A DNA stretch of 63,507 nucleotides, filler included, from Sphacelaria rigidula (Eukaryota), in NCBI GenBank assembly GCA_964200075.2. It is 11 parts of 11 records of this genome, joined end to end, with 100 filler letters (N's around TTAATTAATTAA, not from the genome) between each part and the next. Parts side by side here need not be neighbours in the genome. Positions count along the whole stretch, not along the records: positions 1 to 5,683 come from CAXNAA020025283.1; 10 more parts are not named here. One strand, 5' to 3'. Shown piece after piece: positions 1 to 47,474 of this stretch. Each line of letters begins with the position of its first letter. Positions within the stretch are counted from its first letter, which is position 1. The translations under genes were made by a program, and so were the position numbers. The notes beneath the pieces are model-generated. The model saw only the letters and a list, made by a program, of their open reading frames with translations. It ran no database searches and had not been told where the DNA came from.

Positions 1-64
1 GAGACCCGTCGTGTTGATACCTGCGGCACTGCTGCCACGCGCGTTAGCCGTGGCTTACCACTAG
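1..64 (+). mobile_element. Helitron-like 3' terminus abutting the tandem array
   Basis: GC-rich hairpin GCCACG(34-39)...CGTGGC(49-54), then 6 nt later CTAG (61-64) followed by T. Intact array units read cgcA|TATCGTATG and the sequence after CTAG is TATCGTATG, which fits an A|T insertion site. Confidence 0.6.
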
Positions 65-809
65 TATCGTATGAATCGTGTAATCAAGGGGAAGGTGCCC
101 ATCTGCTCAAAACTCTGGGCCATTTGTTTCCCTCGTTGATTAAACCCCATGTCTAGCGATTCCCGTACCTAGCAGACATGGCGCCAAAACTAGAATATCT
201 ATGGAACTCCCGATCGATGCATTTAGCGGATGGTGACGAATTGTGATGTGAAAGAAAACCCGCGAGAGAGCCGAATACAGAAAACAGGGGGGGGGGCTTC
301 TATTCGTATATATTGCATAGAGGTTGAGGCGTTCTCGTGAAGAAATGGTCTATACCATAGTAGAACGCCCTGAACCAGTGAAGGAGATCCAAACAAATAC
401 AACCTGACCCACTTATGTTCGTCAATCATGCCTGAGAGAGCGTCCGCACAAAATTTCAATACACGACAACCAAGCACGGGCCGGTGAGCGGCGTGCGAAA
501 TACTGTTCCGAGTTCGTACAGACCCGGTTCTGTGAAGGGTAAAGAAGCGCATGACAACCGCCAGAAATATGTTTATTCCCTGTCAACCACTGTTGACGTA
601 CAGTTCGTCAGGTCTACTGCGCTATCGTTATAGTTGGCGACCATCAGATAATCACTATCCATCAACCAAGATTTGGACAAATGATCAAAACAGTGAATCA
701 ACACCAACAAGAGATTTGAAGCTACGGTGTACATTCCATTTTGTGCGAAACGCGCGAGCAATCATATATGTTTGGATGTGACAAGTTGGACAAGCCACCA
801 TGAAGAAAT

Positions 810-915
810 GACGCGATGGCTCGGTGGTCACGCTTACGGAAACGTCAGGCTGTGTGATCGGAAACGCTGGTTCGAATCCGTGCGCAAACACAACTGGTCC
901 ATTGTTTCTCTTTTT
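810..915 (+). ncRNA. Putative Pol III small RNA / tRNA-derived SINE-like cassette, copy 1
   Basis: A-box-like TGGCTCGGTGG (817-827), perfect B-box GGTTCGAATCC (869-879), central hairpin with GAAA loop, T5 at 911-915. Confidence 0.55.
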
Positions 916-1743
916 GCTTCGACCTGGGCCAGCCTAGAAACGGGTCTGAGCTCTACAAGCAATATATCACCGACACAGACGAGTTGGGCGTGATTCGCAT
1001 ATCGTATGAATCGTGTAATCAAGGGGAAGGTGCCCATCTGCTCAAACCTCTGGGCCATTTGTTCCCTCATTGATTAAACCCCATGTCTAGCAATTCCCGT
1101 ACCTAGCAGACATGGCGCCAATACTAGAATCTCTATGGAACTCCCGATCGATGCATTTAGCGGATGGCGACGAATTGTGATGTGAAAGAAAACCCGCGAG
1201 AGTGCCGAATACAGAATACAGGGGGGGGCTTCATTCGTATATATTGCATAGAGGTTGAGGCGTTCTCGTGAAGAAATGGTCTATACCATAGTAGAACGCC
1301 CTGAACCAGTGGAGAAGATCGAAAAAATACAACCTGACCCACTTATGTTCGTCAATTATGCCTGAGAGAGCGTCCGCACAAAATTACAATACACGACAAC
1401 CAAGCACGGGCCGGTGAGCGGCGTGCGAAATACTGTTCCGAGTTCGTACAGACCCGGTTTTGTGAAGGGTGAAGAAGCGCATGACAACCGCCAGAAATAT
1501 GTTTATTCCCTGTCGACCATTGTTTACGTACAGTTCGTCAGGTCTACTGCGCTATCGTTATAGTTGGCGACCATCAGATGATCACCATCCATCAACCAAG
1601 ATTTTGGACAAATGATCAAAATAGTGAATCAACACCAACAACAAGAGATTTGAAGCCACCGTGTACAATCCGTTTTGTGCGAAACGCGCAAGCAATCATG
1701 TATGTTTAGATGTGACAAGTTGGGCAAGCCACCATGAAGAAAC

Positions 1744-1849
1744 GACGCGATGGCTCGGTGGTCACGCTTACGGAAACGTCAGGCTGTGTGATCGGAAACG
1801 CTGGTTCGAATCCGTGCGCAAACACAACTGGTCCATTGTTTCTCTTTTT
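1744..1849 (+). ncRNA. Putative Pol III small RNA cassette, copy 2
   Basis: Same A-box, hairpin, B-box and T5 as copy 1. Confidence 0.55.
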
Positions 1850-2674
1850 GCTACGACCTGGGCCAGCCTAGAAACGGGTCTGAGCTCTACAAGCAATATA
1901 TCACCGACACAGACGAGTTGGGCCATGATCCGCATATCGTATGAATCGTGTAATCAAGAGGAAGGTGCCCATCTGCTCAAACCTCTGGGCCATTTGTTTC
2001 CCTCGTCGAGTAAACCCCATGTCTAGCGATTCCCATACCTAGCAGACATGGCGCCAATACTAGAATCTCTATGGAACTCCCGATCAATGCATTGAGCGGA
2101 TGGCGACGAATTGTGATGTGAAAAACCCCGAGAGAGTGCCGAATACAGAAAACAGGGAAAGCCTTCATCTGTATTTTTTGCATAGAGGTTGGGGCGCTCT
2201 CGTGACGAAATGGTCTATACCATGGTAGAACGCCCTGAACCAGCGAAGAAGACCCAAACAAATACAACCTGACCCACTTATTTTCGTCAATTACGCCTCA
2301 GGGAGCGTCCATACAAAATCTCAATACACGATAGCCAAGCACGGGCCGGTGAGCGGCGTGCGAAATACTGTTCCGAGTTCGTACAGACCCGGTTTTGTGA
2401 AGGGTAAAGAAGCGCATGACAACTGCCAGAAATATGTTTATTCCCTGTCAACCATTGTTTACGTACAGTTCGTCAGGTCTTCTGTGCCATTATTATAGTT
2501 GGCGACCATCAGATAATCACCATCCATCAACCAAGATCCGGACAAATGATCAAAACAGTGAATCAACACGAACAAGAGATTTGAAGCTACGGTGTACAAT
2601 CCGTCTTGAGCGAAACGCGCAAGCAATCATGTATGTTTGGATGTGACAAGTTGGGCAAGCCACCATGAAGAAAC

Positions 2675-2780
2675 GACGCGATGGCTCGGTGGTCACGCTG
2701 ACGGAAACGTCAGGCTGTGTGATCGGAAACGCTGGTTCGAATCCGTGCGCAAACACAACTGGCCCATTGTTTCTCTTTTT
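2675..2780 (+). ncRNA. Putative Pol III small RNA cassette, copy 3
   Basis: Same architecture; hairpin CTGACG-GAAA-CGTCAG is perfect. Confidence 0.55.
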
Positions 2781-3609
2781 GCTACGAACTGGGCCAGCCT
2801 AGAAACGGGTCTGAGCTCTACACGCAATATATCACCGACACAGACGAGTTGGGCCGTGATCCGCATATCGTATGAATCGTGTAATCAAGAGGAAGGTGCC
2901 CATCTGCTCAAAACTCTGGGCCATTTGTTTTCCCCGTCGAGTAAACCCCATGTCTAGCAATTCCCATACCTAGCAGACATGGCGCCAATACTAGAATCTC
3001 TATGGAACTCCCGATCGATGCATTCAGCGGATGGCGACGAATTGTGATGTGAAAAACCCCGAGAGAGTGCCGAATACAGAAAACAGGGAAAGCCTTCATC
3101 TGTATTTTTTGCATAGAGGTTGAGGCGCTCTCGTGAAGAAATGGTCTATACCATAGTAGAACGCCCTGAACCAGTGAAGAAGATCGAAACAAATACAACC
3201 TGACCCACTTATTTTCGTCAATTACGCCTCAGGGAGCGTCCATACAAAATTTCAATACACGATAGCCAAGCACGGGCCGGTGAGCGGCGTGCGAAATACT
3301 GTTCCGGGTTCGTACAGACCCGGTTTTGTGAAGGGTGGAGAAGCGCATGACAACCGCCAGAAATATGTTTATTCCCTGTCAACCATTGTTTACGTACAGT
3401 TCGTCAGGTCTACTGCGCTTTTGTTATAGTTGGCGACCATCAGATAATCACCATCCATCAGTCAAGATTTTGGACAAATGATCAAAACAGTGAATCAACA
3501 CCAACAACAAGAGATTTGAAGCTACCGTGTACAATCCGTCTTGTGCGAAACGCGCAAGCAATCATGTATGTTTAGATGTGACAAGTTGGACAAGCCACCA
3601 TGAAGGAAT

Positions 3610-3715
3610 GACGCGATGGCTCGGTGGTCACGCTGACGGAAACGTCAGGCTGTGTGATCGGAAACGCTGGTTCGAATCCGTGCGCAAACACAACTGGTCC
3701 ATTGTTTCTCTTTTT
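3610..3715 (+). ncRNA. Putative Pol III small RNA cassette, copy 4
   Basis: Same architecture; hairpin CTGACG-GAAA-CGTCAG is perfect. Confidence 0.55.
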
Positions 3716-4539
3716 GCTACGACCTGGGCCAGCCTAGAAACGGGTCTGAGCTCTACAAGCAATATATCACCGACACAGACGAGTTGGGCCGTGATCCGCA
3801 TATCGTATGAATCGTGTAATCAAGGGGAAGGTGCCCATCTGCTCGAAACTCTGGGCCATTTGTTCCCTCGTTGATCAAACCCCATGTCTAGCGATTCCCG
3901 TACCTAGCAGACATGGCGCCAATACTAGAATATCTATGGAACTCCCGATCGATGCATTCAGCGGATGGCGACGAATTGTGATGTGAAAAGACCCCGCAAG
4001 AGTGCCGAATACAAAAAACAGGGGGGGCTTCTATTCGTATTCATTGCATAGAGGTTGAGGCGTTCTCGTGAAGAAATGGTCTATATCATAGCAGAACGCC
4101 CTGAACCAGTGAAGAAGATCGAAAAAATACAACCTGACCCACTTATGTTCGTCAATCATGCCTTAGGGAGCGTCCGCACAAAATTTCATTACACGACAAC
4201 CAAACACGGGTCGGTGAGCGGCGTGCGAAATACTGTTCCGAGTTCGTACAGACCCGGTTCTGTGAAGGGTGAAGAAGCGCATGACAACCGCCAGAAATAT
4301 ATTCATTCCTTGTTCACCGTTGTTTACGTACAGTTCGTCAGGTCTACTGCGCTATTGTTATAGTTGGCGACCGTCAAATTATCACGATCCATCAACCAAG
4401 ATTTGGACAAGTGATCAAAACAGTGAATCAACACCAACAAGAGATTTGAAGCTACGGTGTACAACCCGCTTTGTGCGAAACGCGCAAGCAATCATGTATG
4501 TTAAAATGTGACAAGTTGGACAAGCTACAATGAAGAAAT

Positions 4540-4645
4540 GACGCGATGGCTCGGTGGTCACGCTGACGGAAACGTCCGGCTGTGTGATCGGAAACGCTGG
4601 TTCGAATCCGTGCGCAAACACAACTGGTCCATTGTTTCTCTTTTT
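4540..4645 (+). ncRNA. Putative Pol III small RNA cassette, copy 5
   Basis: Same architecture; one substitution in the 3' arm of the hairpin. Confidence 0.55.
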
Positions 4646-5683
4646 GCTACGACCTGGGCCAGCGTAGAAACGGATCTGAGCTCTACAAGCAATATATCAT
4701 CGACACAGACGAGTTGGGCCGTGATCCGCATATCGTATGAATCGTGTAATCAAGGGGAAGGTGCCCATCTGCTCGAACCTCTTGGCCATTTGTTCCCTCG
4801 TTGATCAAACCCCATGTCTAGCGATTCCCGTACCTAGCAGACATGGCGCCAATACTAGAATATCTATGGAACTCCCGACCGATGCATTCAGCGGATGGCG
4901 ACGACCTGTGAAGTGGAAGAAAACCCGCAAGAGTGCCGAATACAGAAAACAGGGGGGGCTTCTGTTCGTATTTATTGCATAGAGGTTGAGGCGTTCTCGT
5001 GAAGAAATGGTCTACACCATAGTAGAACGCCCTGAACCAGTGGAGAAGATCCAAAAAAATACAACCTGACCCACTTATGTTCGTCAATTATGCCATAGGG
5101 AGCGTCCGCACAAAATTTCAATACACGATAACCAAGCACGGGTCGGTGAGCGGCGTGCGAAATACTGTTCCGAGTTCGTACAGACCCGGTTCTGTGAAGG
5201 GTGAAGAAGCGCATGACAACCGCCAGAAATATGTTTATTCCCTGTCAACCATTGTTTACGTACAGTTCGTCAGGTCTACTGCGCTATTGTTATAGTTGGC
5301 GACCATCAAATTATCACGATCCATCAAAAATTTTGGGGCTAGCACTTCCCTTCCTCCTGGCCTGCTCCCTGCGGGGGTGGGCCGAGGACCGCTAGTGATC
5401 TTTAACAACACACACAAAGACCACCAAACCAACGGAAGCGGAGCAAGGAAAGGTAAGGGACACGAACCCTAGCATCGTGTCGACGTGGGCTCTGAGGTTT
5501 GGGGCGATAGGAGATGCAGGGGTCGTGAGACACAGTGTAACTCATATCGCACTAAGTGTTTCAGATACCACCCCCTTCCCCCGACTGCCCATACTGGGGT
5601 GGGCAGAAGTCCACCTGTGATCTTAGACCACCATTCAAAGATCAGTCAACGACGGTGGAGACACGAGTACGAACCTCGTATCG

Positions 5684-15225: not shown

Positions 15226-16062
15226 CAAGCTGGGCCGACGAAAACGCCAGCATTTAACCAATATCGCTGTGCCCCGCTCAGGTTTTGGAATTCGGGTCTG
15301 AAATTTGGACACGTGATTCAGAGCCGTTTGCTGAACAAATTACTTGGAGGTCGCAAAAAAAAAGAGTTTTTTTCTATACTTTTTTGTCAATAATGTGATC
15401 CTGAATTTCCTTAGTTCGACCGTAAGTCGGCAAGATTATATATATATTTTTTGCGACCTCCAAGTTTTATTTTCATCACACTACTCTCAATCGCGTGGCA
15501 AAATTTCAGGTTCCAATTCCCAAAAGGGAGTGGGGAACGGCGAATCTTACGATGGACGCTTTTCCTCAGGAATTCCATGGAAAACCTGCAAGTGTCTGCA
15601 TAAAAATCAGCGAGAAAGTCTCGAATTATGTTGCCTTTTGTGAGTGCTCCTTACGGTGGATGGTGATTGCAAGGAGGTACAGTTAGGACAGCTACAGGGG
15701 GAGTGGTCTTCACCCACTGCATGATATCTGGCGTGTGCAGGGTCAGCAGAGAGCTCTTGCAGGGAAGAAACTGCTGCGCTGCTGAGCTGCCGTCTGCTGT
15801 AACACTTGATCGCACCGCGTTTTTCTTTTTTAAATTTAACGAAAATGACCGTTTCACGCCTCAATTACGCCGCACCATAGCGGGCTGTGATTGATCAGAA
15901 ATCCTTCAAGTGCAGAACGTGCTCTCTGCGGGATCTGGAGGGTTTGAGCTTCAGCGCATGAATTCACCAATTGTAGCAATGTTTCCGGTTTGAGCTACAA
16001 CCTAGAGGAAGTGGAGATATGGCGATCTGACACATTGTGAGCTTTCCGGTCGGCCCAGCTTG
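15226..16062. mobile_element. Tc1/mariner-like non-autonomous element (837 bp)
   Basis: Perfect 14-bp TIR CAAGCTGGGCCGAC / GTCGGCCCAGCTTG, flanked by TA on both sides (15224-15225, 16063-16064). Confidence 0.85.
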
Positions 16063-17178: not shown

Positions 17179-17349
17179 GTCAAAAGTGTCACGGAGAAAA
17201 TTGCGATACAGCGCCTGATGTTTGGGTTCAGGCTGCATGAACCGCCTCANNNNNNNNNNNNNNNNNNNNNNNNNNNNNNNNNNNNNNNNNNNNTTAATTA
17301 ATTAANNNNNNNNNNNNNNNNNNNNNNNNNNNNNNNNNNNNNNNNNNNN

Positions 17350-17404
<55 letters not shown>

Positions 17405-18581
17405 CGTCGTCGTCGTGGCGGTTGTTGTGGTTGATGTTGTTGTCGTCGTCGTGGCGGTTGTTGTGGTTGCGTTGGCTTCTACAGTCCGAGTCGTCGTGTT
17501 TGTCTGTATTGTGAAAACTGCACCGTTTGACAGACCTGTCCTGGTGGTTTGACTGCCCACTAGAACGGCAGTCACGGGCGTGGTGACCTCTTCTTCCGCA
17601 CGAAAAGCTTTTTCCGCGAAATTTCGCGGGTTGATCCGAGGAGTTCGGCATTGCTGCCGCCAGCATAGAAGAATCACGGCTATGTGATCTGCTCGCGGTT
17701 ACTTTCCTCGCCAGTCTATTGGCATACATGTTACGTAGGGTAGTTTCAATATCCCCGATGCTCAAGTCTGGGTCTCGTTCTGCGTTATATTTCACTTGGT
17801 CATACTCGCTGGTTAGACCCTCGACGATGATATCAGTGAGTCTTTCGTCGGAGATAGGCTCGCCAATGTGCACGAGCTCGTCCCGGAGCTAGAATAGTTT
17901 TGCCAAGAAAACATCCGGGCCTTGTCCTGGTGACATAGTCATGGTGTCCAGCTGTCGCATCAGTATGCGACGTCTTTGCTTAGATGAATTTTGATACTTG
18001 GCTACCAGTCCTTCCCACGCATTTTTGCCGTTTGGTTTCTCTGGACCCTTCAGCTGAAAACGCAAGAGGTAACTTGCCGCTGAGCCAGGTGACGATAAGT
18101 ACAAAACGTTGAACAACTGTTCGTTATACCGGTTCCAGTTTTGTATCTCACGCATGTTCAAAATTTTTCTCACATTTGACTCCACGCAGGGATGATCAGA
18201 CACTTCTTGAACAGGAGGTTTGGCTTGAACACCGGCAGCTTCAGTGTCACCCGCCGCTGCTGTCGTCTCGCTCCCTGCGTTTGCTTCCACCGATGGTAAC
18301 GACGAACGAGCGGGCGGCTGCTGATGGCTTCTGGAACGGGTCGCAATGGGGCTTGTTCTTGATGTCGATCTGGCAGCTGGTTGTGGGCGATCTACCTCAG
18401 AAAAATCTTTATCATAAATTTCCGGGGGGCGTTCAACCCCGTTGAGGATATCATTTATCCCTGGATGAGTCAAGGAAATTATCGCGCGTGTAGAGCGCGT
18501 CCATTCGACGAATTTCGTACCGTCGAACTTGCGTATACTCCTGATGAGTTGAGTTACAGATGGCTCTCCCGATGTATTCAT
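17350..18581 (-). pseudogene. gag: Ty1/Copia gag, one in-frame stop
   Basis: FDGTKFVEW...AWEGLVAKYQ...GEPISDERLTDIIVEGLTSEY; degenerate knuckle SFSCGRRGHHARDC and a second CSFHNTDKHDDSDC. TAG at 17889-17891 splits two in-frame ORFs; ends in a poly-Asn (TTG)n tract at the contig edge. Confidence 0.85.
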
Positions 18582-18730
18582 CTGCCTCAAGTTTTATTCG
18601 TAAAACTGTCTATTCACACCTGCAGATCCTGTGAAAGGATCTGAATTCTTGGTCTTCTTACTGATGCTGTTGAGACGACCTTGAAGTGACGTCCCCTCGC
18701 TCGTGCTGACCGTCGTAGTCTTGACTCAAA

Positions 18731-21767: not shown

Positions 21768-23132
21768 TTAGTGTAATGCGTGAGAGGACCGCATGCTTAG
21801 AGGACCGCGCCGTAGTTCAAAACACCTCAGGATCGACGTCTTTCAAAACCAATCCGGCCAGTCCCTGCAGGTACTACGCCCCTGACCATAACCCCGACAC
21901 TAACCCTAACCCTAACCCTAACCCTAATCATAGGGATATTCAAGTTCCGATGCGGTTCTCTAAGCACGCGATCCTCTCACGCATTACACTTAGCACACCC
22001 AAGACAGTTTGGCATTCTTCGACTGATTCGGGAATATGATGACGATACGTGTATCGCTTCTCCGTCGCTAGGGGCAGATGCCAATATTCAGGGGCGCTTG
22101 CCCGTATCTAGATGCGCTCCCCCCTACCCAGGTGCGCTTCCCCTTCCCCGCGTGCACTTCCCCCTACCCAGGTGCGCTTCCCCCTACCCAGGTGCGCTTC
22201 CCCATAGTCAGGGGCGCTTGCCCCTAATCCGGGCCGTTCCCCCCTAACCAGGGGCGCTTCCCCATAGTCAGGGGGCGTTTACCCTTAATCCGGACCGCTT
22301 GCCCTTAAGCGAAAAGTTGCCCTTAACCGGGCGTTGCCCTTAACCTGCAACAGGCCTCTTTTCTTGATGTCAAGCACTTCTCTAATGTACCCTTTCTCCT
22401 CTCGTGTCTTTGTAACTTCGATGTCGGAGCTGCCCGGATGCGATATTTTGGGCTGCTGCTGCTGTTCCTGCTGCTTCTGCTGTTGGTGGTTCGGCTGCTT
22501 CTTATGCTGGTGATGGCGGTTATGGGACTGCGACTGCTCCTGATGCTGATCACGGGCCTTCTGCCGTGAAGTTGATAGTCTCTTCGTTGTAGAGGATGGA
22601 ATAACCTTCGTTCTTGTACCCCTGTTGTAATTTCTGCGCCTGCTGTTTTCTGCCGCTGTAGAGTTGACCGGCCTGTTCTTCTCATGGGATTTCAAATTTC
22701 GTTCATTACCCGTACTGATGCATGCAGTTGTAGGCCTGGCCAATGAAGATCTAGATCTACTGTTGTTATGACTCTTGCTCATTTTCCCGGCTGAACAGCA
22801 CACAGATTTTACTTTTCGGGCGGCTGCTGTCGGAGGCGGTTCTACGATCTTGACGGTTCCTGTATTGTTCGGCGGAAACACTGCGGCTGATAATGCTGTC
22901 CCCATCCGCAAACATTCTCCGGATAATACCCTAGTCGTGAGTGCTGACTCGATCCTTTTGTTCAAGGTTTTCGAATTTTGAGCAACCTGCATGCCAATGT
23001 AGTGTAATGCTCCACCGCAGTTGCTAATGGGANNNNNNNNNNNNNNNNNNNNNNNNNNNNNNNNNNNNNNNNNNNNTTAATTAATTAANNNNNNNNNNNN
23101 NNNNNNNNNNNNNNNNNNNNNNNNNNNNNNNN

Positions 23133-23196
23133 CTCGTCTGTGTCAATGCGATATTGCTTTTAGAGCTTAAATCCGTTTTTAGGCTGGCCCAGCTCG
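23133..23196 (-). mobile_element. Terminus of a mariner-like element homologous to part of the contig-1 array unit
   Basis: Reverse complement TA-CGAGCTGGGCCAGCCTAAAAACGGATTTAAGCTCTAAAAGCAATAT...ACACAGACGAG matches array positions 1852-1917. Confidence 0.75.
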
Positions 23197-23319
23197 TACA
23201 TGTTTTGGGCATACAATACGCAAGCAGACCAACCGTCGCAATAAACACCGTCAAGTAAAATATATCTGGGGTTCAAAATGTATGTCGGAACCTGTTTAGG
23301 AGTAAGCACGGGTACATTT

Positions 23320-24824
23320 CAAGGGTAGGTCGAGTAGAGTATGTACTTTGAGTACTCGATTAAAATACTGAAGTGTTTACTTTACTCGACGTTTGAGTAG
23401 GTCGAGTACGGCCTCAAATACTCTACTCCAATTTTGAGTTGGTCGAGTATGGCCTCAAATACTCTACTCAAATATTGAGTAAGCACTCTCAGTAATACTG
23501 GAGTATAGAGTATCACTAGAGTATGACCTCAATACTCTACTCGAGTAATTGAGTAGGTTGAGTACGGCCTCAAATACTCTACTCAAATTTTGAGTAGGTC
23601 GACTATGGTCCCAAATACTTGATTCAAACTTTGAGTAAGCACTCTCAGTAATACTTGAGTATAGAGAGTCACTTGAGTATGACCTCAATACTCTACTCAA
23701 ATTTCGAGTAGGTCGAGTACGGCCTCCAATACTCTACTCGACGTTTGAGTAGATCGAGTACGACCTCAAATACTCTACTCAAATATTGAATAAGCACTCA
23801 CAGTAATACTCGAGTATAGAGTATCACTTGAGTATGACCTCAATACTCTACTCAAAATTTGAGTAGTTGGAGTACGGCCTCCAATACTCTACTCAAATTT
23901 TTGAGTAGATTAAGTACGACCTCAAATACTCAAATATTGAGTAAGCACTCACAGTAATACTTGGGTATAGAGTACCCCTTGGGTATGGTGAGTAACCCTG
24001 ACAGTCGGCGACTTCGTGACGTCACTTCACAAACTACGTTGAATACATGGGCCAACGGTGGTCATCAATTAGATGGGCGGCTTTACATCACAGCCAACAA
24101 GGAGTAAGAGCGAATGATGGCCATAAAAAAAATAAAAAAGCGTGCAGGGCCCTTCGACAATACCACAACATCCAAACAACATTGTTCTACCCTAGTTTTG
24201 TACCATTTGGTTTTGATCCGAATGTTTGCTGAAGTTTGACCTTGAATCAACACTCATCATGAATGGGCAACTCTAGGGATACCTCGGTATTTCCTCTACC
24301 CGAGTTTGAGTATCTTGCGTACGAACTTGAATATTGAAGATGAAGTTATGGGTTATCGGTACATCGGATCCGGCCTCAGATACTCTACTGAAATTTTGAG
24401 TAGGTCGAGTGCGGCCTCCAATACTCTACTCAAATTTTGAGTAGGTCGAGTACGACCTCCAATACTCTACTCAAATTTCGAGTAGACTGAGTATGGCCTC
24501 CAATACTCTACTCAAATTTTGAGTACGTTGAGTACGGCCTCAAATACTCGACTCAAATTTTGAGTAGATCGAGTACGACCTCAAATACTCTACTCAAATA
24601 TTGAGTAAGCACTCTCAGTAATACTTGAGTATGGAGTATCACTTGAGTATGACCCCAATACTCTACTCAAATTTCGAGTAGACTGAGTATGATCTCAAAT
24701 ATTCTACTCGAGTAATTGAGTAGGTCGAGTACAACCTCAAATACTCTACTCAAACTTTGAGTACTAAAAGTATGACTCTTCAAAAATACTGAGTATTGAG
24801 TGTACTCTACTCGACCTACCGTTG
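23320..24824. mobile_element. 1.5-kb hAT-like non-autonomous element built from palindromic minisatellites
   Basis: TIR CAAGGGTAGGTCGAGTAGAGTA / TACTCTACTCGACCTACCGTTG; perfect 8-bp TSD GTACATTT (23312-23319, 24825-24832); two arrays of ~41/73-bp units containing TACTCAAATTTTGAGTA around a ~380-bp unique core. Confidence 0.9.
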
Positions 24825-38689: not shown

Positions 38690-39368
38690 CCAGCTCTCCT
38701 TTTTCTGAGACACCTGGTCTTACCATTAAGATTTTGTGCGGCCCTTTCTAGGAGTGAGGCAGTTTAGCCGATAAAGATGTCGTTCCCTCTTCTCGTACCG
38801 CACTTCCACCCGACATGATAGTACCCTTGGTATCGTGGACAAATTCTCAGTCACCTACTTCCCGCTCCGGCCGTCGATTCAGAGTTTCCTCCACTTGCTC
38901 CTTGTTCGACTTGTGTTTAGATTCGAGATATAGTCCTCCTACCTCACAAGATAATATGCTCAAGTTTGACGATCCCTCAACAACTTCGAATACTCCAGTT
39001 GATCTCGTCTGCAATCCTTGGTGTCGGGACACACCCCTTATCTCCAGGATGGTTATGGGTAACCGGGGATACCTCAAAATATGCCCCTCATTTGGCGCCA
39101 ACCCCACTCCCTTACTTACATTATTGTTGTGTGCAGAAATTGCGTGTAACAGCAGCTTGTCCCAGTCTTCCTGACCATCTGCCACCAGACACGACAACAT
39201 CTGACACAACGTGTGGTTTTGTCGCTCTACCATCCCATTAGTTCGTGGATGACACGCACTTGTGTATTGTCTCACGACTCCCAACATTCTATCGACAACC
39301 CTAGCTACTTTCGCCGTGAATTTCGTTCCTCGATCCGACAGTAACGTTTGAGGTAACCCATCTCCCAA
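38690..39368 (-). pseudogene. Ty3/Gypsy integrase fragment
   Basis: LPQTLLSDRGTKF...TSACHPRTNGMVERQNHTLCQML...DWD; downstream degenerate SAKLPHS*KGPHKIL (GPY/F-like). Confidence 0.85.
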
Positions 39369-40553
39369 CCCAGAATTTTACACAATCTTTTATTCCGACC
39401 CACCAGTGATATCGTTTCAACAGCGATAGCGTGGTACTTTCCCCCAAATGAATAGTTCATTTGTGGGTTTGGTCCGTTACCCAGGGTCTTAACAAAAATG
39501 GCACATACCTTCTGGTCGGCTCTTTTCCCAAATACATCTCAAATTTCCCAGGATTGCGGTTTCCCTTGACTGGGCATCGGCGTCGGCTGCTTCACCAATT
39601 AAAGACTTCCGTTCGACAGTTCCAAAAGTGTTCCATTCTTGAACATTGTTTTGAACCGGGATGAGCCAATTTGTGTGGAGATACCCTTTCTTGATCGTTA
39701 GTCAGCGTCGTCATTCGTGTTTTTTTCAAAGATTCGAAGGCAGTCCTAGACGTGATTTTTTCCTGGTGTATTTGAACCCAGTCTTTTGTCGATTTCTGGC
39801 ACAACTGTTATCCACAATTACAGGCTTCATCCGCTTCCAGAGTCGATGAGACCGGTATTAGTGGCCCCGCACTACTGCTTCCTACTTCTGTTATGGGTTC
39901 GATCACTGATACGGCTCTGTGCTTCGGAGGCTGTAGCAATTTTCTCCCTACTCACGTGATCGGACATGCATCCAAGATTAAGCCGTATTCCCATTGTCCA
40001 CTGACCATGTTACTCATCTGGAAAAAAATTGACGGGGAATCATTCGGTGCCACGTACGAAGGCTTGTCCGCTCTTTTTCTTCCTATTCTACTCGCATTAC
40101 TTCCGCCCTGCTCACTCTTCGTACCTAAATCCATTGTTGGTCAGCTTCTTCAGAAGTCGTGAGTGGTACTGCGCTTACTTCTTTCCCCCCATTTTTCAAA
40201 ATCGATCCAGGGTCCAGCCCATTAAAGTTTTGATCGTGGGAACTCACTGCAGATTCTAAATGCCCATCCCTGGTCAGGCTTGTAAAATTGCTCGGCCGGA
40301 CACCACTAAACAGCCGATTTTCGAAAATGAGGTTGGAAACAAAAATGAGGTTCAACTCAAAAGTCGTGCTTTCCCTGACNNNNNNNNNNNNNNNNNNNNN
40401 NNNNNNNNNNNNNNNNNNNNNNNTTAATTAATTAANNNNNNNNNNNNNNNNNNNNNNNNNNNNNNNNNNNNNNNNNNNNGGGGGGGGGGGGGGTGGGGGG
40501 TGGTGAGAGGTAGGAAAGGGGGGGGGGTGGGGTGCGGGGGGAGGGGGGGGGGA

Positions 40554-46050: not shown

Positions 46051-47474
46051 AAAGCATAGTCACTGAGTTTGGTAGCTCGAACAGTTAACAGCCGATTTTC
46101 AATTTTGGGTCTCATACAAAATATGGGGTTGAAGTGGCTTTTCTCTCTTGCACGGAAGACCNNNNNNNNNNNNNNNNNNNNNNNNNNNNNNNNNNNNNNN
46201 NNNNNTTAATTAATTAANNNNNNNNNNNNNNNNNNNNNNNNNNNNNNNNNNNNNNNNNNNNAAGAGAGTATGCAGCGGCAGCTGCTGCTTCAGTCGGAGA
46301 GGCGTACTACAGTGTACTGTCCTATACTGTTGTGCTGATACCCTTCGAAGAGAATTTGCCGCATGCAACACAGTGGGGCAATGGCGGCCCGCCCCGACCA
46401 CAAAGGGCTGTGTGGCAAGGTGATGGGGACGAAAGTATCATCCAAACCCATAGGTGGCGGGCGGTCGCCGCATCCTGTTGGAAGCTCTGTACCGCGACAC
46501 ATACTGCTTGCTACATCAGATGTACACCACCTAATGCGCACCCTGCACCTGAAAACAGACGAGATGAAATTTTCGGTCTTCGTCATAACCCTGCAGTTAC
46601 ATACGCGGATTTTCAGCAACACTTCACTGTTTCGTTTAAACGCCAGACACGTCATTCCTCACCAGCCTCATTGCTTGTTCTGGAGGCCCGGTCCCAAAAG
46701 GGTTCAGGGCATCAATCAGTTTTCAGGTATCAGTAAAACGCTCTTAACTCATGAAAGAAAACAAAAAACCTGTTGGTACCGACGTAATTTTTTTGTTATG
46801 CCCTATGCCATACCAAATTTTACGCTCCAACTCTAAACATTTACCGGCGCATGGGCCTGCAAACTTCAAATCCGCCTCTAGGCTGGCCCAGCTGGTAATA
46901 CGCGTGATTGGCGCCTGTTGTGGCTACTTTCCTGCGGTTGTTGTGTACTCTGAGTAATGCAAACGTGTACTCCCTGTGTTGAAGCCCCTTGATCCCTGTG
47001 GTATGCCATGTCCTGTGGTCTATATATCAGGGTTGGCGATGTCTTCCTTGGTGTTGATTGATGGCTTGGGTCGCCTAATACTGGTTATGGCGCTCGAACA
47101 GTCCACACATCGGTATGTTCACCTGAGGTACTGCAGAAAACAGGCAGTTCAGCGTGATTGGCTCAAGTGGGCGAGGGTATGCACATCTCCACGCACGGCA
47201 GTCAGACCGGCCAGAAGTCCAGACTCTCACAATGGCAGTGTGCACCCCGCCAGGCTATTTAGGCTACGCCAAGTGTCTGAAGTCAATTGAATATCAGCTT
47301 CTCAGCTGATATTTAGAAGAGTGCCATGTGAGGCATGAGGACAGCTCCTCACCACGAATCGAGTCAATCAGTAGCGCTTGTCCCCATTATGTAATGTTCC
47401 ACTCACCTCTTGTGGGGAATAACCATTTCAAGACGTGGTATGACGTTATTGTTCACAACAGTATTTTGTTTGAT

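What the first reader, a model, noticed from the sequence alone, without database searches (positions are those of the whole stretch)
810..4645. Tandem array of a non-tRNA Pol III small-RNA-like cassette (vault/VA-RNA-like architecture)
Seen: each of five ~933-bp units contains a 106-nt stretch with TGGCTCGGTGG (A-box-like) and, 52 nt later, a perfect GGTTCGAATCC B-box, ending in T5. Between the boxes lies a long hairpin (TGGTCACGC-TGACG-GAAA-CGTCA...GTGTGATCG) capped by a GAAA tetraloop. The 5' end (TGACGCGATGG, TCGG) can pair with the B-box/3' segment (TCGA, CCGTGCGCA), giving a panhandle. It cannot form a cloverleaf because there is no 7-nt anticodon loop or clean acceptor stem. By eye only 3 positions vary across the 5 copies, whereas a similar-length segment equivalent to 240-345 varies at more than a dozen. 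Some other parts of the unit are also well conserved, so this contrast is suggestive only. Established: internal A/B boxes plus a T-run define type-2 Pol III genes (tRNA, SINEs, vault RNA, adenovirus VA RNA). Inference: an amplified cluster of an undescribed ~100-nt RNA, or a tRNA-derived SINE head captured in a satellite.
Basis: partly seen in the sequence, partly recalled or inferred. Interest (0 to 1): 0.75.

Follow-up and report, generated by a model that had tools for sequence, protein, structure and literature searches.

The report
Arrayed tRNA-derived small RNA, brown alga
A brown alga carries repeated copies of what looks like a gene for an undescribed, roughly 100-letter RNA that evolved from a transfer RNA and has kept its folded shape while the DNA around it was replaced by transposon pieces; whether it is made, and what it does, is untested.

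Summary
The cassette is real: five copies in a 933-bp array (window 65-5327), each with A-box, B-box and T5; no Rfam or ARAGORN hit. The genome is a brown alga. About 550 bp of each unit is the left part of a high-copy TA-flanked MITE. The cassette is rarer: 22 copies found on 14 contigs, most old and decaying; two lack the MITE, so the MITE inserted later. Within the array the cassette varies at 3 of 106 sites against 116 of 822 elsewhere (p 0.0002; scan-corrected 0.015). Comparing old and young copies gives three helices with compensatory changes: a 5'/3' closing stem (810-825 with 893-908) ending just before T5, a GNRA-capped hairpin and a retained tRNA T-arm. Copies share 5' flanks, so they spread as DNA, not as a SINE. 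Best reading (0.6): a lineage-specific, tRNA-derived, ~100-nt Pol III RNA under structural selection, analogous to rodent 4.5SI/4.5SH and amphibian OAX/PolIII-TAN, not homologous to them. Expression, function and presence in other species are not shown; three of five window copies carry a hairpin-breaking change.

The parts
65..5327 (+). Tandem array, about 5.6 units of 930-935 bp, 91-96% identical; unrelated sequence on both sides within the contig
810..915 (+). Predicted RNA gene, copy 1 (G810 = tRNA position 1; ends in T5)
1744..1849 (+). Predicted RNA gene, copy 2
2675..2780 (+). Predicted RNA gene, copy 3 (all hairpin pairs intact)
3610..3715 (+). Predicted RNA gene, copy 4 (all hairpin pairs intact)
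4540..4645 (+). Predicted RNA gene, copy 5
817..827 (+). A-box; G at tRNA position 14 (823) where the older copies and the 29 genomic tRNA genes compared have A
810..825 (+). 5' strand of closing stem P1 (pairs with 893-908; 14 of 16 positions pair, no bulge)
826..859 (+). Hairpin P2: 826-833 with 852-859, 4-nt bulge 848-851, tip 834-838 with 843-847, GNRA loop 839-842
865..884 (+). tRNA-like T-arm P3 (865-870 with 878-884, one bulged base, 7-nt loop) containing the B-box 869-879
893..908 (+). 3' strand of closing stem P1
911..915 (+). T5, predicted Pol III terminator
   Evidence: role inferred from established Pol III biology
765..809 (+). 5' flank shared with most dispersed old copies (60% mean pairwise identity over -60..-1 against 40% further up); candidate upstream promoter element, no TATA box
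918..1468 (+). Left ~550 bp of a ~850-bp MITE (TA, ~22-bp TIR), cut at the base of its central palindrome; repeats at 65-538, 1852-2403, 2783-3334, 3718-4268, 4648-5200
2442..2480 (+). Terminal repeat of a second, ~330-bp inverted-repeat element; present in each unit

Best explanation
Each cassette is a type-2 Pol III gene for a stand-alone, ~100-106-nt RNA that arose from a tRNA (tRNA-Cys is the best candidate) in a brown-algal lineage. The acceptor and D stems were lost; the A-box and the T-arm/B-box were kept as promoter; the anticodon arm became a GNRA-capped hairpin; a new 3' tail pairs with the first 16 nt and ends just before the T-run. Shown: the anatomy, excess conservation, covariation, MITE insertion into an older locus, DNA-level duplication. 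Inferred: TFIIIC/Pol III transcribe it; the terminal duplex makes it long-lived, as reported for 4.5SI RNA; it works as a stable protein-binding (decoy or scaffold) RNA through the T-loop, the conserved 4-nt bulge and the 3' oligo-U, not as a base-pairing guide, because its single-stranded linkers are not conserved. The active genes sit in tandem arrays whose spacers turn over and fill with MITE pieces; scattered copies are decaying orphans of earlier arrays.
For: P2+P3: 93.7% of 238 cells paired, 16 cells changed on both sides, 0 of 500 shuffles as high, slid controls at most 45%. P1: 5 of 14 pairs changed on both sides, 13 cells against 6.9+/-2.1 (1 of 500), score 0.303 against at most 0.093 slid; 14 of 16 positions pair in 7 of 7 full array copies, shuffle p about 0.005, ending at +99 with T-run at +102. 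Five double changes separate old and array copies (816:902, 818:900, 837:844, 838:843, 867:882). On the lineage to the array 8 of 8 stem changes in P2/P3 keep pairing (one column is a consensus tie; simulated p 0.0025 for 7), against 14 kept and 15 broken on 7 orphan branches and 39% expected at random. An array copy and old copy C8335 fold alone to the same three helices. Array conservation; array against C6858: cassette 81/89, MITE part 302/385, p 0.007. Empty sites at C2421 and C25665 and a complete MITE at C22462. Variants read in public runs (2705 A>G, 2724 C>T) keep the GNRA loop and the pair (only the best-supported rows were shown).
Against: No transcript evidence. Two variants in the array break the tip helix, in 3 of 5 window copies, and each is shared by two copies. 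The array A-box departs from the tRNA consensus at position 14. Against C6662 the cassette (67/84) is no more conserved than upstream (117/142) or MITE (128/156), and against C6858 the upstream contrast is not significant (p 0.096). Folding z-scores are 1.3 to -1.6 for 13 copies, and most old copies do not fold alone to the model; P1 is better than shuffles (p<0.01) in only 2 of 10 non-array copies. The structure was derived from some of these sequences, the copies are related (five events, not independent cells), and the shuffle control ignores relatedness. Most old copies were found through the cassette, which inflates its apparent conservation. No homologue outside this genome and near-identical runs was found or could be searched.
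Confidence: 0.6

Rival explanations
1. An inert satellite: the head of an extinct or rare tRNA-derived SINE (or a selfish Pol III repeat) was caught with a MITE end in a tandem duplication. Covariation dates from earlier master copies; today's array copies do nothing for the host.
For: The unit is a patchwork of transposon pieces; cassette plus MITE end was tandemly duplicated twice, also at C21779; old copies decay at about the neutral rate; hairpin-breaking variants have spread in the array; one copy, C3758, shares only ~15 nt of 5' flank, as a retroposed copy would; no expression shown.
Against: Excess conservation within the young array itself; closing stem ends at the terminator, so the selected RNA has no body or tail for a LINE enzyme; only 22 copies found and none beside 18 dispersed MITE loci; most copies share 45-270 bp of 5' flank.
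Confidence: 0.25
2. The cassette is a Pol III driver whose read-through past T5 makes RNA from the adjoining MITE end and feeds small-RNA silencing of that MITE family (a trap locus).
For: 17 of the 19 copies with an intact 3' end are followed by a MITE left end in the same orientation; the MITE has about 1,900 candidates in the assembly; small RNAs are associated with TE families in Ectocarpus (PMC12477816, passages).
Against: One ancestral insertion, plus a nested one at C6858, explains the linkage; two copies lack the MITE; T5 and P1 point to a 100-nt product; the MITE part of the unit varies at the average rate, 62/462; only 1 of 29 tRNA genes has a TIR-like match within 200 nt downstream.
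Confidence: 0.06
3. Selection acts on DNA: the boxes are TFIIIC sites serving as a chromatin boundary, and the double changes come from templated repair of short inverted repeats.
For: A- and B-box positions are among the most conserved columns; templated mutation in quasi-palindromes is established knowledge (recalled).
Against: G-U/G-C exchanges and GNRA retention are RNA signatures; P1 partners lie 70-100 nt apart and change one pair at a time.
Confidence: 0.05
4. It is the brown-algal counterpart of a known Pol III RNA (vault RNA or Y RNA) diverged beyond Rfam recognition.
For: Size, internal A/B boxes (as vault RNA genes have; PMC7904556, passages) and a closed 5'/3' stem.
Against: No Rfam match at E<=10 in the window or E<=5 over six loci with old copies; clear tRNA-arm ancestry; Y RNA genes use type-3 promoters (PMC10137851, passages).
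Confidence: 0.04

Closest known systems
Rodent 4.5SI RNA (PMC10137851, passages; PMC3440375, listing and abstract start)
   Same: About 98 nt, tRNA-derived, type-2 Pol III promoter, narrow taxonomic range, a 16-bp duplex between its ends that gives stability; function unknown.
   Different: Three genes, a companion high-copy SINE (B2) and a TATA-like box; here arrays and orphans, no companion SINE found, no TATA box, retained T-arm and GNRA hairpin; expression not shown; no homology tested beyond Rfam.
Rodent 4.5SH RNA (PMC10137851, passages)
   Same: About 94 nt, Pol III, each gene part of a long tandem repeat.
   Different: 7SL/B1-derived, unstable, no long hairpin, hundreds of 4-5-kb units, acts against antisense B1 exonization; here tRNA-derived, closed structure, 0.93-kb units, no abundant complementary target found.
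Amphibian tRNA-related tandem repeats OAX, PolIII/TAN, Rana/polIII (PMC10702118, passages)
   Same: Tandem repeats with a tRNA-related segment and no matching dispersed SINE; PolIII/TAN is transcribed in vitro.
   Different: Vertebrate; the passages read report no covarying closed structure or MITE-built spacer.
tRNA-derived SINEs and SINE-derived satellites (PMC10702118, passages)
   Same: tRNA head with A/B boxes; decaying dispersed copies; tandem amplification.
   Different: No LINE-derived region, tail or target-site duplication seen; shared 5' flanks; low copy number; terminator directly behind the head. In Ectocarpus no SINE with a known Pol III 5' end was identified (PMC12477816, passages).
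Vault RNA / adenovirus VA RNA
   Same: Internal A/B boxes, ~100 nt (vault), 5'/3' stem (recalled).
   Different: No Rfam match; the B-box here sits in a tRNA T-arm and does not pair with the 5' end; no viral match.
Tc1/mariner-type MITEs of brown algae (PMC12477816, passages)
   Same: Non-autonomous, short TIRs, TA at both ends, high copy.
   Different: Here only the left ~550 bp is built into the array unit; superfamily inferred from TA ends, no transposase sought.

Membership tests
tRNA (RF00005) | Cloverleaf with 7-bp acceptor stem and 7-nt anticodon loop | tested here: not met
   ARAGORN 0 genes; Rfam none; tip loop is 4 nt
tRNA-derived type-2 Pol III unit | A-box, B-box in a T-arm, downstream T-run | tested here: met
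   array A-box has G at position 14
tRNA-derived type-2 Pol III unit | Identifiable parent tRNA | tested here: inconclusive
   tRNA-Cys(GCA) scores 35 of 50 anchored positions, Asn 33, others 26-31; only 29 genes of 11 isotypes compared
tRNA-derived type-2 Pol III unit | Transcription by Pol III | not testable with these tools
   no run on record as RNA; contigs only
SINE | Many dispersed copies beginning at the Pol III start with unrelated 5' flanks | tested here: not met
   22 copies on 14 contigs (lower bound); shared 5' flanks in all but C3758 among those aligned
SINE | LINE-derived 3' region, simple-repeat tail, target-site duplication | tested here: inconclusive
   none seen by eye in the loci read; the outer ends of the old duplicated segment were not defined and no LINE library was searched
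Vault RNA (RF00006) | Match to the family model | tested here: not met
Vault RNA (RF00006) | Major vault protein in the genome | tested here: inconclusive
   PF01505 0 matches, but no positive control rang and the assembly is fragmented
Y RNA, SRP RNA, VA RNA, tRNA-Sec, snRNAs | Match to Rfam models | tested here: not met
   0 of 57 viral pattern loci match the cassette model
4.5SI-like lineage-specific RNA (works-like) | About 100 nt, tRNA origin, ~16-bp terminal duplex | tested here: met
4.5SI-like lineage-specific RNA (works-like) | Abundant, stable nuclear RNA | not testable with these tools
   needs northern or small-RNA data
Tc1/mariner-type MITE (spacer part) | TIRs with TA at both ends, high copy, empty site | tested here: met
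   inverted right end found in 13 of 17 dispersed copies, 817-869 bp in 12; empty sites

The most novel reading that the evidence does not exclude
An abundant, functional, stramenopile Pol III RNA class: a tRNA-Cys derivative that independently reached the 4.5SI design (16-bp terminal duplex) while keeping a T-arm, is encoded by large collapsed tandem arrays with transposon-built spacers, and acts as a tRNA-mimic decoy or scaffold for a specific protein. It would show that this route from tRNA to new functional RNA also operates outside vertebrates, with its old stages still readable in the genome.
Probability: 0.3. Interest if true: 0.8.

Novelty: new variant of a known kind. Interest (0 to 1): 0.57.

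Why it matters
In the papers read, lineage-specific tRNA- or 7SL-derived ~100-nt Pol III RNAs are described from rodents and amphibians, and most have no known function. Non-tRNA Pol III products of brown algae are nearly uncharted (searches found no paper on such an RNA). This family offers dated intermediates (old orphans, empty and filled MITE sites, a young array), a covariation-based structure and a sharp test: a ~102-106-nt U-ended RNA. If silent, it is a well-resolved case of a satellite built from a tRNA head and a MITE end.

Tried and rejected
Hammerhead-like look of 470-540: it is MITE sequence, z -0.24, no Rfam hit. Helitron 3' end (hairpin before CTAG in old copies): homology continues past it. 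MITE targeting of Pol III genes: 1 of 29 tRNA genes has a TIR-like match within 200 nt downstream; the window itself has 4 other TIR matches. Viral origin: 57 pattern loci, 0 match the model. Metagenomes: 14 pattern loci, best 12.9 bits, chance. Weak model hit near a tRNA-Gly (15.4 bits): no boxes, rejected. Expression: no RNA holder listed; 4 of the 7 listed runs were laid, all contigs, two only guessed to be RNA; one contig bridges spacer, cassette and MITE, which cannot be told from DNA. Summed depth over the cassette in run X2 (1.6-2.0 x 10^5) is like that at the MITE's first bin (1.5 x 10^5); the tool says this is no copy number, so it is only a lead that larger arrays may be collapsed. 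Run X5 (organism B) has depth 12 and may hold traces of organism A, so it is not counted as cross-species conservation. Vault protein search uninformative. Upstream-segment search found only itself. Earlier findings of this scan: none.
Full report
Setting. The window is a set of contig pieces joined by N runs; 1-5683 is contig C25283 of a 244-Mb assembly in 27,214 contigs. A plastid PsaL from contig C1 is identical to a protein NCBI lists under Sphacelaria rigidula, so the organism is a brown alga.

Observation. Five A-box/B-box pairs, 52 nt apart, recur every 930-935 bp; units are 91-96% identical. The array runs from 65 to 5327 with unrelated sequence on both sides. ARAGORN and Rfam find nothing. 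In 810-915 only sites 835, 847 and 898 vary: 3 of 106 against 116 of 822 (Fisher p 0.0002; p 0.015 for the best of all windows; with 7 units 5 of 106, p 0.00036 and 0.037; gap columns excluded). The perfect tip hairpin is present in 2 of 5 copies.

What the unit is made of. Sequence starting three bases after T5 matches about 1,900 first-look candidates in the assembly, 40 scored per search. Of 17 dispersed copies examined, 13 show an inverted right end, 12 of them 817-869 bp away, with TA at both ends and a central palindrome: a Tc1/mariner-type MITE (superfamily inferred from the ends; such MITEs are common in Ectocarpus, PMC12477816, passages). Each unit holds its first ~550 bp, cut at the base of the palindrome, then the end of a second inverted-repeat element, then about 190 bp shared with the nearest dispersed cassette copies. 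None of 18 dispersed MITE loci carries the cassette.

The cassette family. DNA and pattern searches and models run on the fetched loci give 22 copies on 14 contigs, a lower bound: 5 here, 3 in a second array (C18857), 3 on C21779, and single, mostly decayed copies. Of 19 with an intact 3' end, 17 are followed by a MITE left end. C22462 has a complete MITE variant, and the sequence after its right end follows the cassette directly at C2421 and C25665: the MITE inserted into an older locus. Copies share 45-270 bp of 5' flank, except C3758 with about 15 nt. They spread as DNA segments, not by retroposition from the Pol III start. The tree is star-like, with two supported clades: array plus C6858, and C11329 plus C6662.

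Origin. Among 29 tRNA genes of 11 isotypes from 26 nuclear-looking loci, tRNA-Cys(GCA) is closest (35 of 50 anchored positions, 9 of 10 in the anticodon stem; Asn 33) and shares the T-stem wobble pair. tRNA origin is clear; the isotype is a lead.

Structure. Three helices do. P2 (GNRA hairpin with 4-nt bulge) and P3 (T-arm): 93.7% of 238 cells paired, 16 cells changed on both sides, 0 of 500 shuffles as high (for the first 10 rows). P1 pairs 810-825 with 893-908: 14 of 16 positions in 7 of 7 full array copies (shuffle p about 0.005), ending three bases before the T-run; 5 of 14 pairs show double changes, 13 cells against 6.9 expected. Five double changes separate old from array copies. Stem changes in P2/P3 on the way to the array keep pairing 8 of 8 times (one a consensus tie), whereas orphan branches keep 14 and break 15 (the two terminal branches C11329 and C6662 were left out). 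Array copies and old copy C8335 fold alone to this shape. Limits: the structure was read from these sequences, the copies are related, energy z-scores are not significant, most old copies do not fold to the model alone, and P1 beats shuffles in only 2 of 10 non-array copies.

Against function today. Both variable sites in the array core break the tip helix and each is shared by two copies; the array A-box has G at position 14 (non-canonical box bases can be functional in 4.5S genes, PMC10137851, passages); against C6662 the cassette is no better conserved than its flanks. Public runs gave no RNA evidence either way.

Mechanism. Shown: anatomy, conservation, covariation, order of MITE insertion. 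Inferred: Pol III makes a ~102-106-nt RNA ending in U; the terminal duplex stabilises it, as a 16-bp duplex does for 4.5SI (PMC10137851, passages); it binds proteins through T-loop, bulge and oligo-U rather than guiding by base pairing, since the linkers differ between subfamilies. Arrays supply dosage and are homogenised while spacers turn over. I put 0.6 on this, 0.25 on an inert SINE-head satellite, 0.06 on MITE-silencing read-through, 0.05 on DNA-level constraint, 0.04 on a diverged vault or Y RNA.

Known and new. It works like rodent 4.5SI (size, origin, terminal duplex) and is arranged like 4.5SH, OAX and PolIII/TAN (PMC10137851; PMC10702118, passages), but is not a member of any Rfam family and fails the SINE copy-pattern test. 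Searches for a brown-algal counterpart in print found none; the library lacks most subscription papers and supplements were not read. Verdict: a new variant of a known kind, interest 0.57, to rise sharply if the RNA is detected or found in other genera.

Noticed in passing
window:23133-23198, 46707-46893, near 16041, 60388 and 60696: Further ends or fragments of the same MITE family; the one at 23133-23198 is cut by a contig edge and lies beside 41-bp tandem repeats (23378-24764).
   Followed up: partly
window:21429-22274: 20/40/60-bp tandem repeats around eight telomere-type hexamers (21880-21927) inside a contig.
   Followed up: no
window:52619-53311 (+); 17298-18593 and 38847-39377 (-): LTR-retrotransposon remnants: GAG-pre-integrase domain at 52.6-53.3 kb; the other frames look gag- and integrase-like by eye but had no Pfam hit.
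   Followed up: partly
window:50094-50183: Exon-sized WHEP-TRS match below cut-off (22.7 bits), probably part of an aminoacyl-tRNA synthetase gene.
   Followed up: partly
L057 (C21779):94-2150: A second, independent tandem of cassette plus short MITE end with a ~480-bp unit; the third copy is cut inside the cassette and joined to the family's own upstream segment, as at C24527.
   Followed up: partly
L122 (C25665):1819-2225: A cassette copy split in two by an inserted foldback element also found at C2940 and C2421.
   Followed up: partly
L082 (C20961):1501-1573: A tRNA with the tRNA-Lys(CTT) body but a CTC (Glu) anticodon: possible anticodon switch or pseudogene.
   Followed up: no
L106 and L107: Closely spaced tRNA clusters (His-Thr, His-Cys) on nuclear-looking contigs, possibly organelle-derived insertions.
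   Followed up: no
L009 (C6858):1090-1310: First exon of what reads as an NADP-isocitrate dehydrogenase gene about 400 bp from the cassette copy, divergently oriented (motif recalled, not searched).
   Followed up: no
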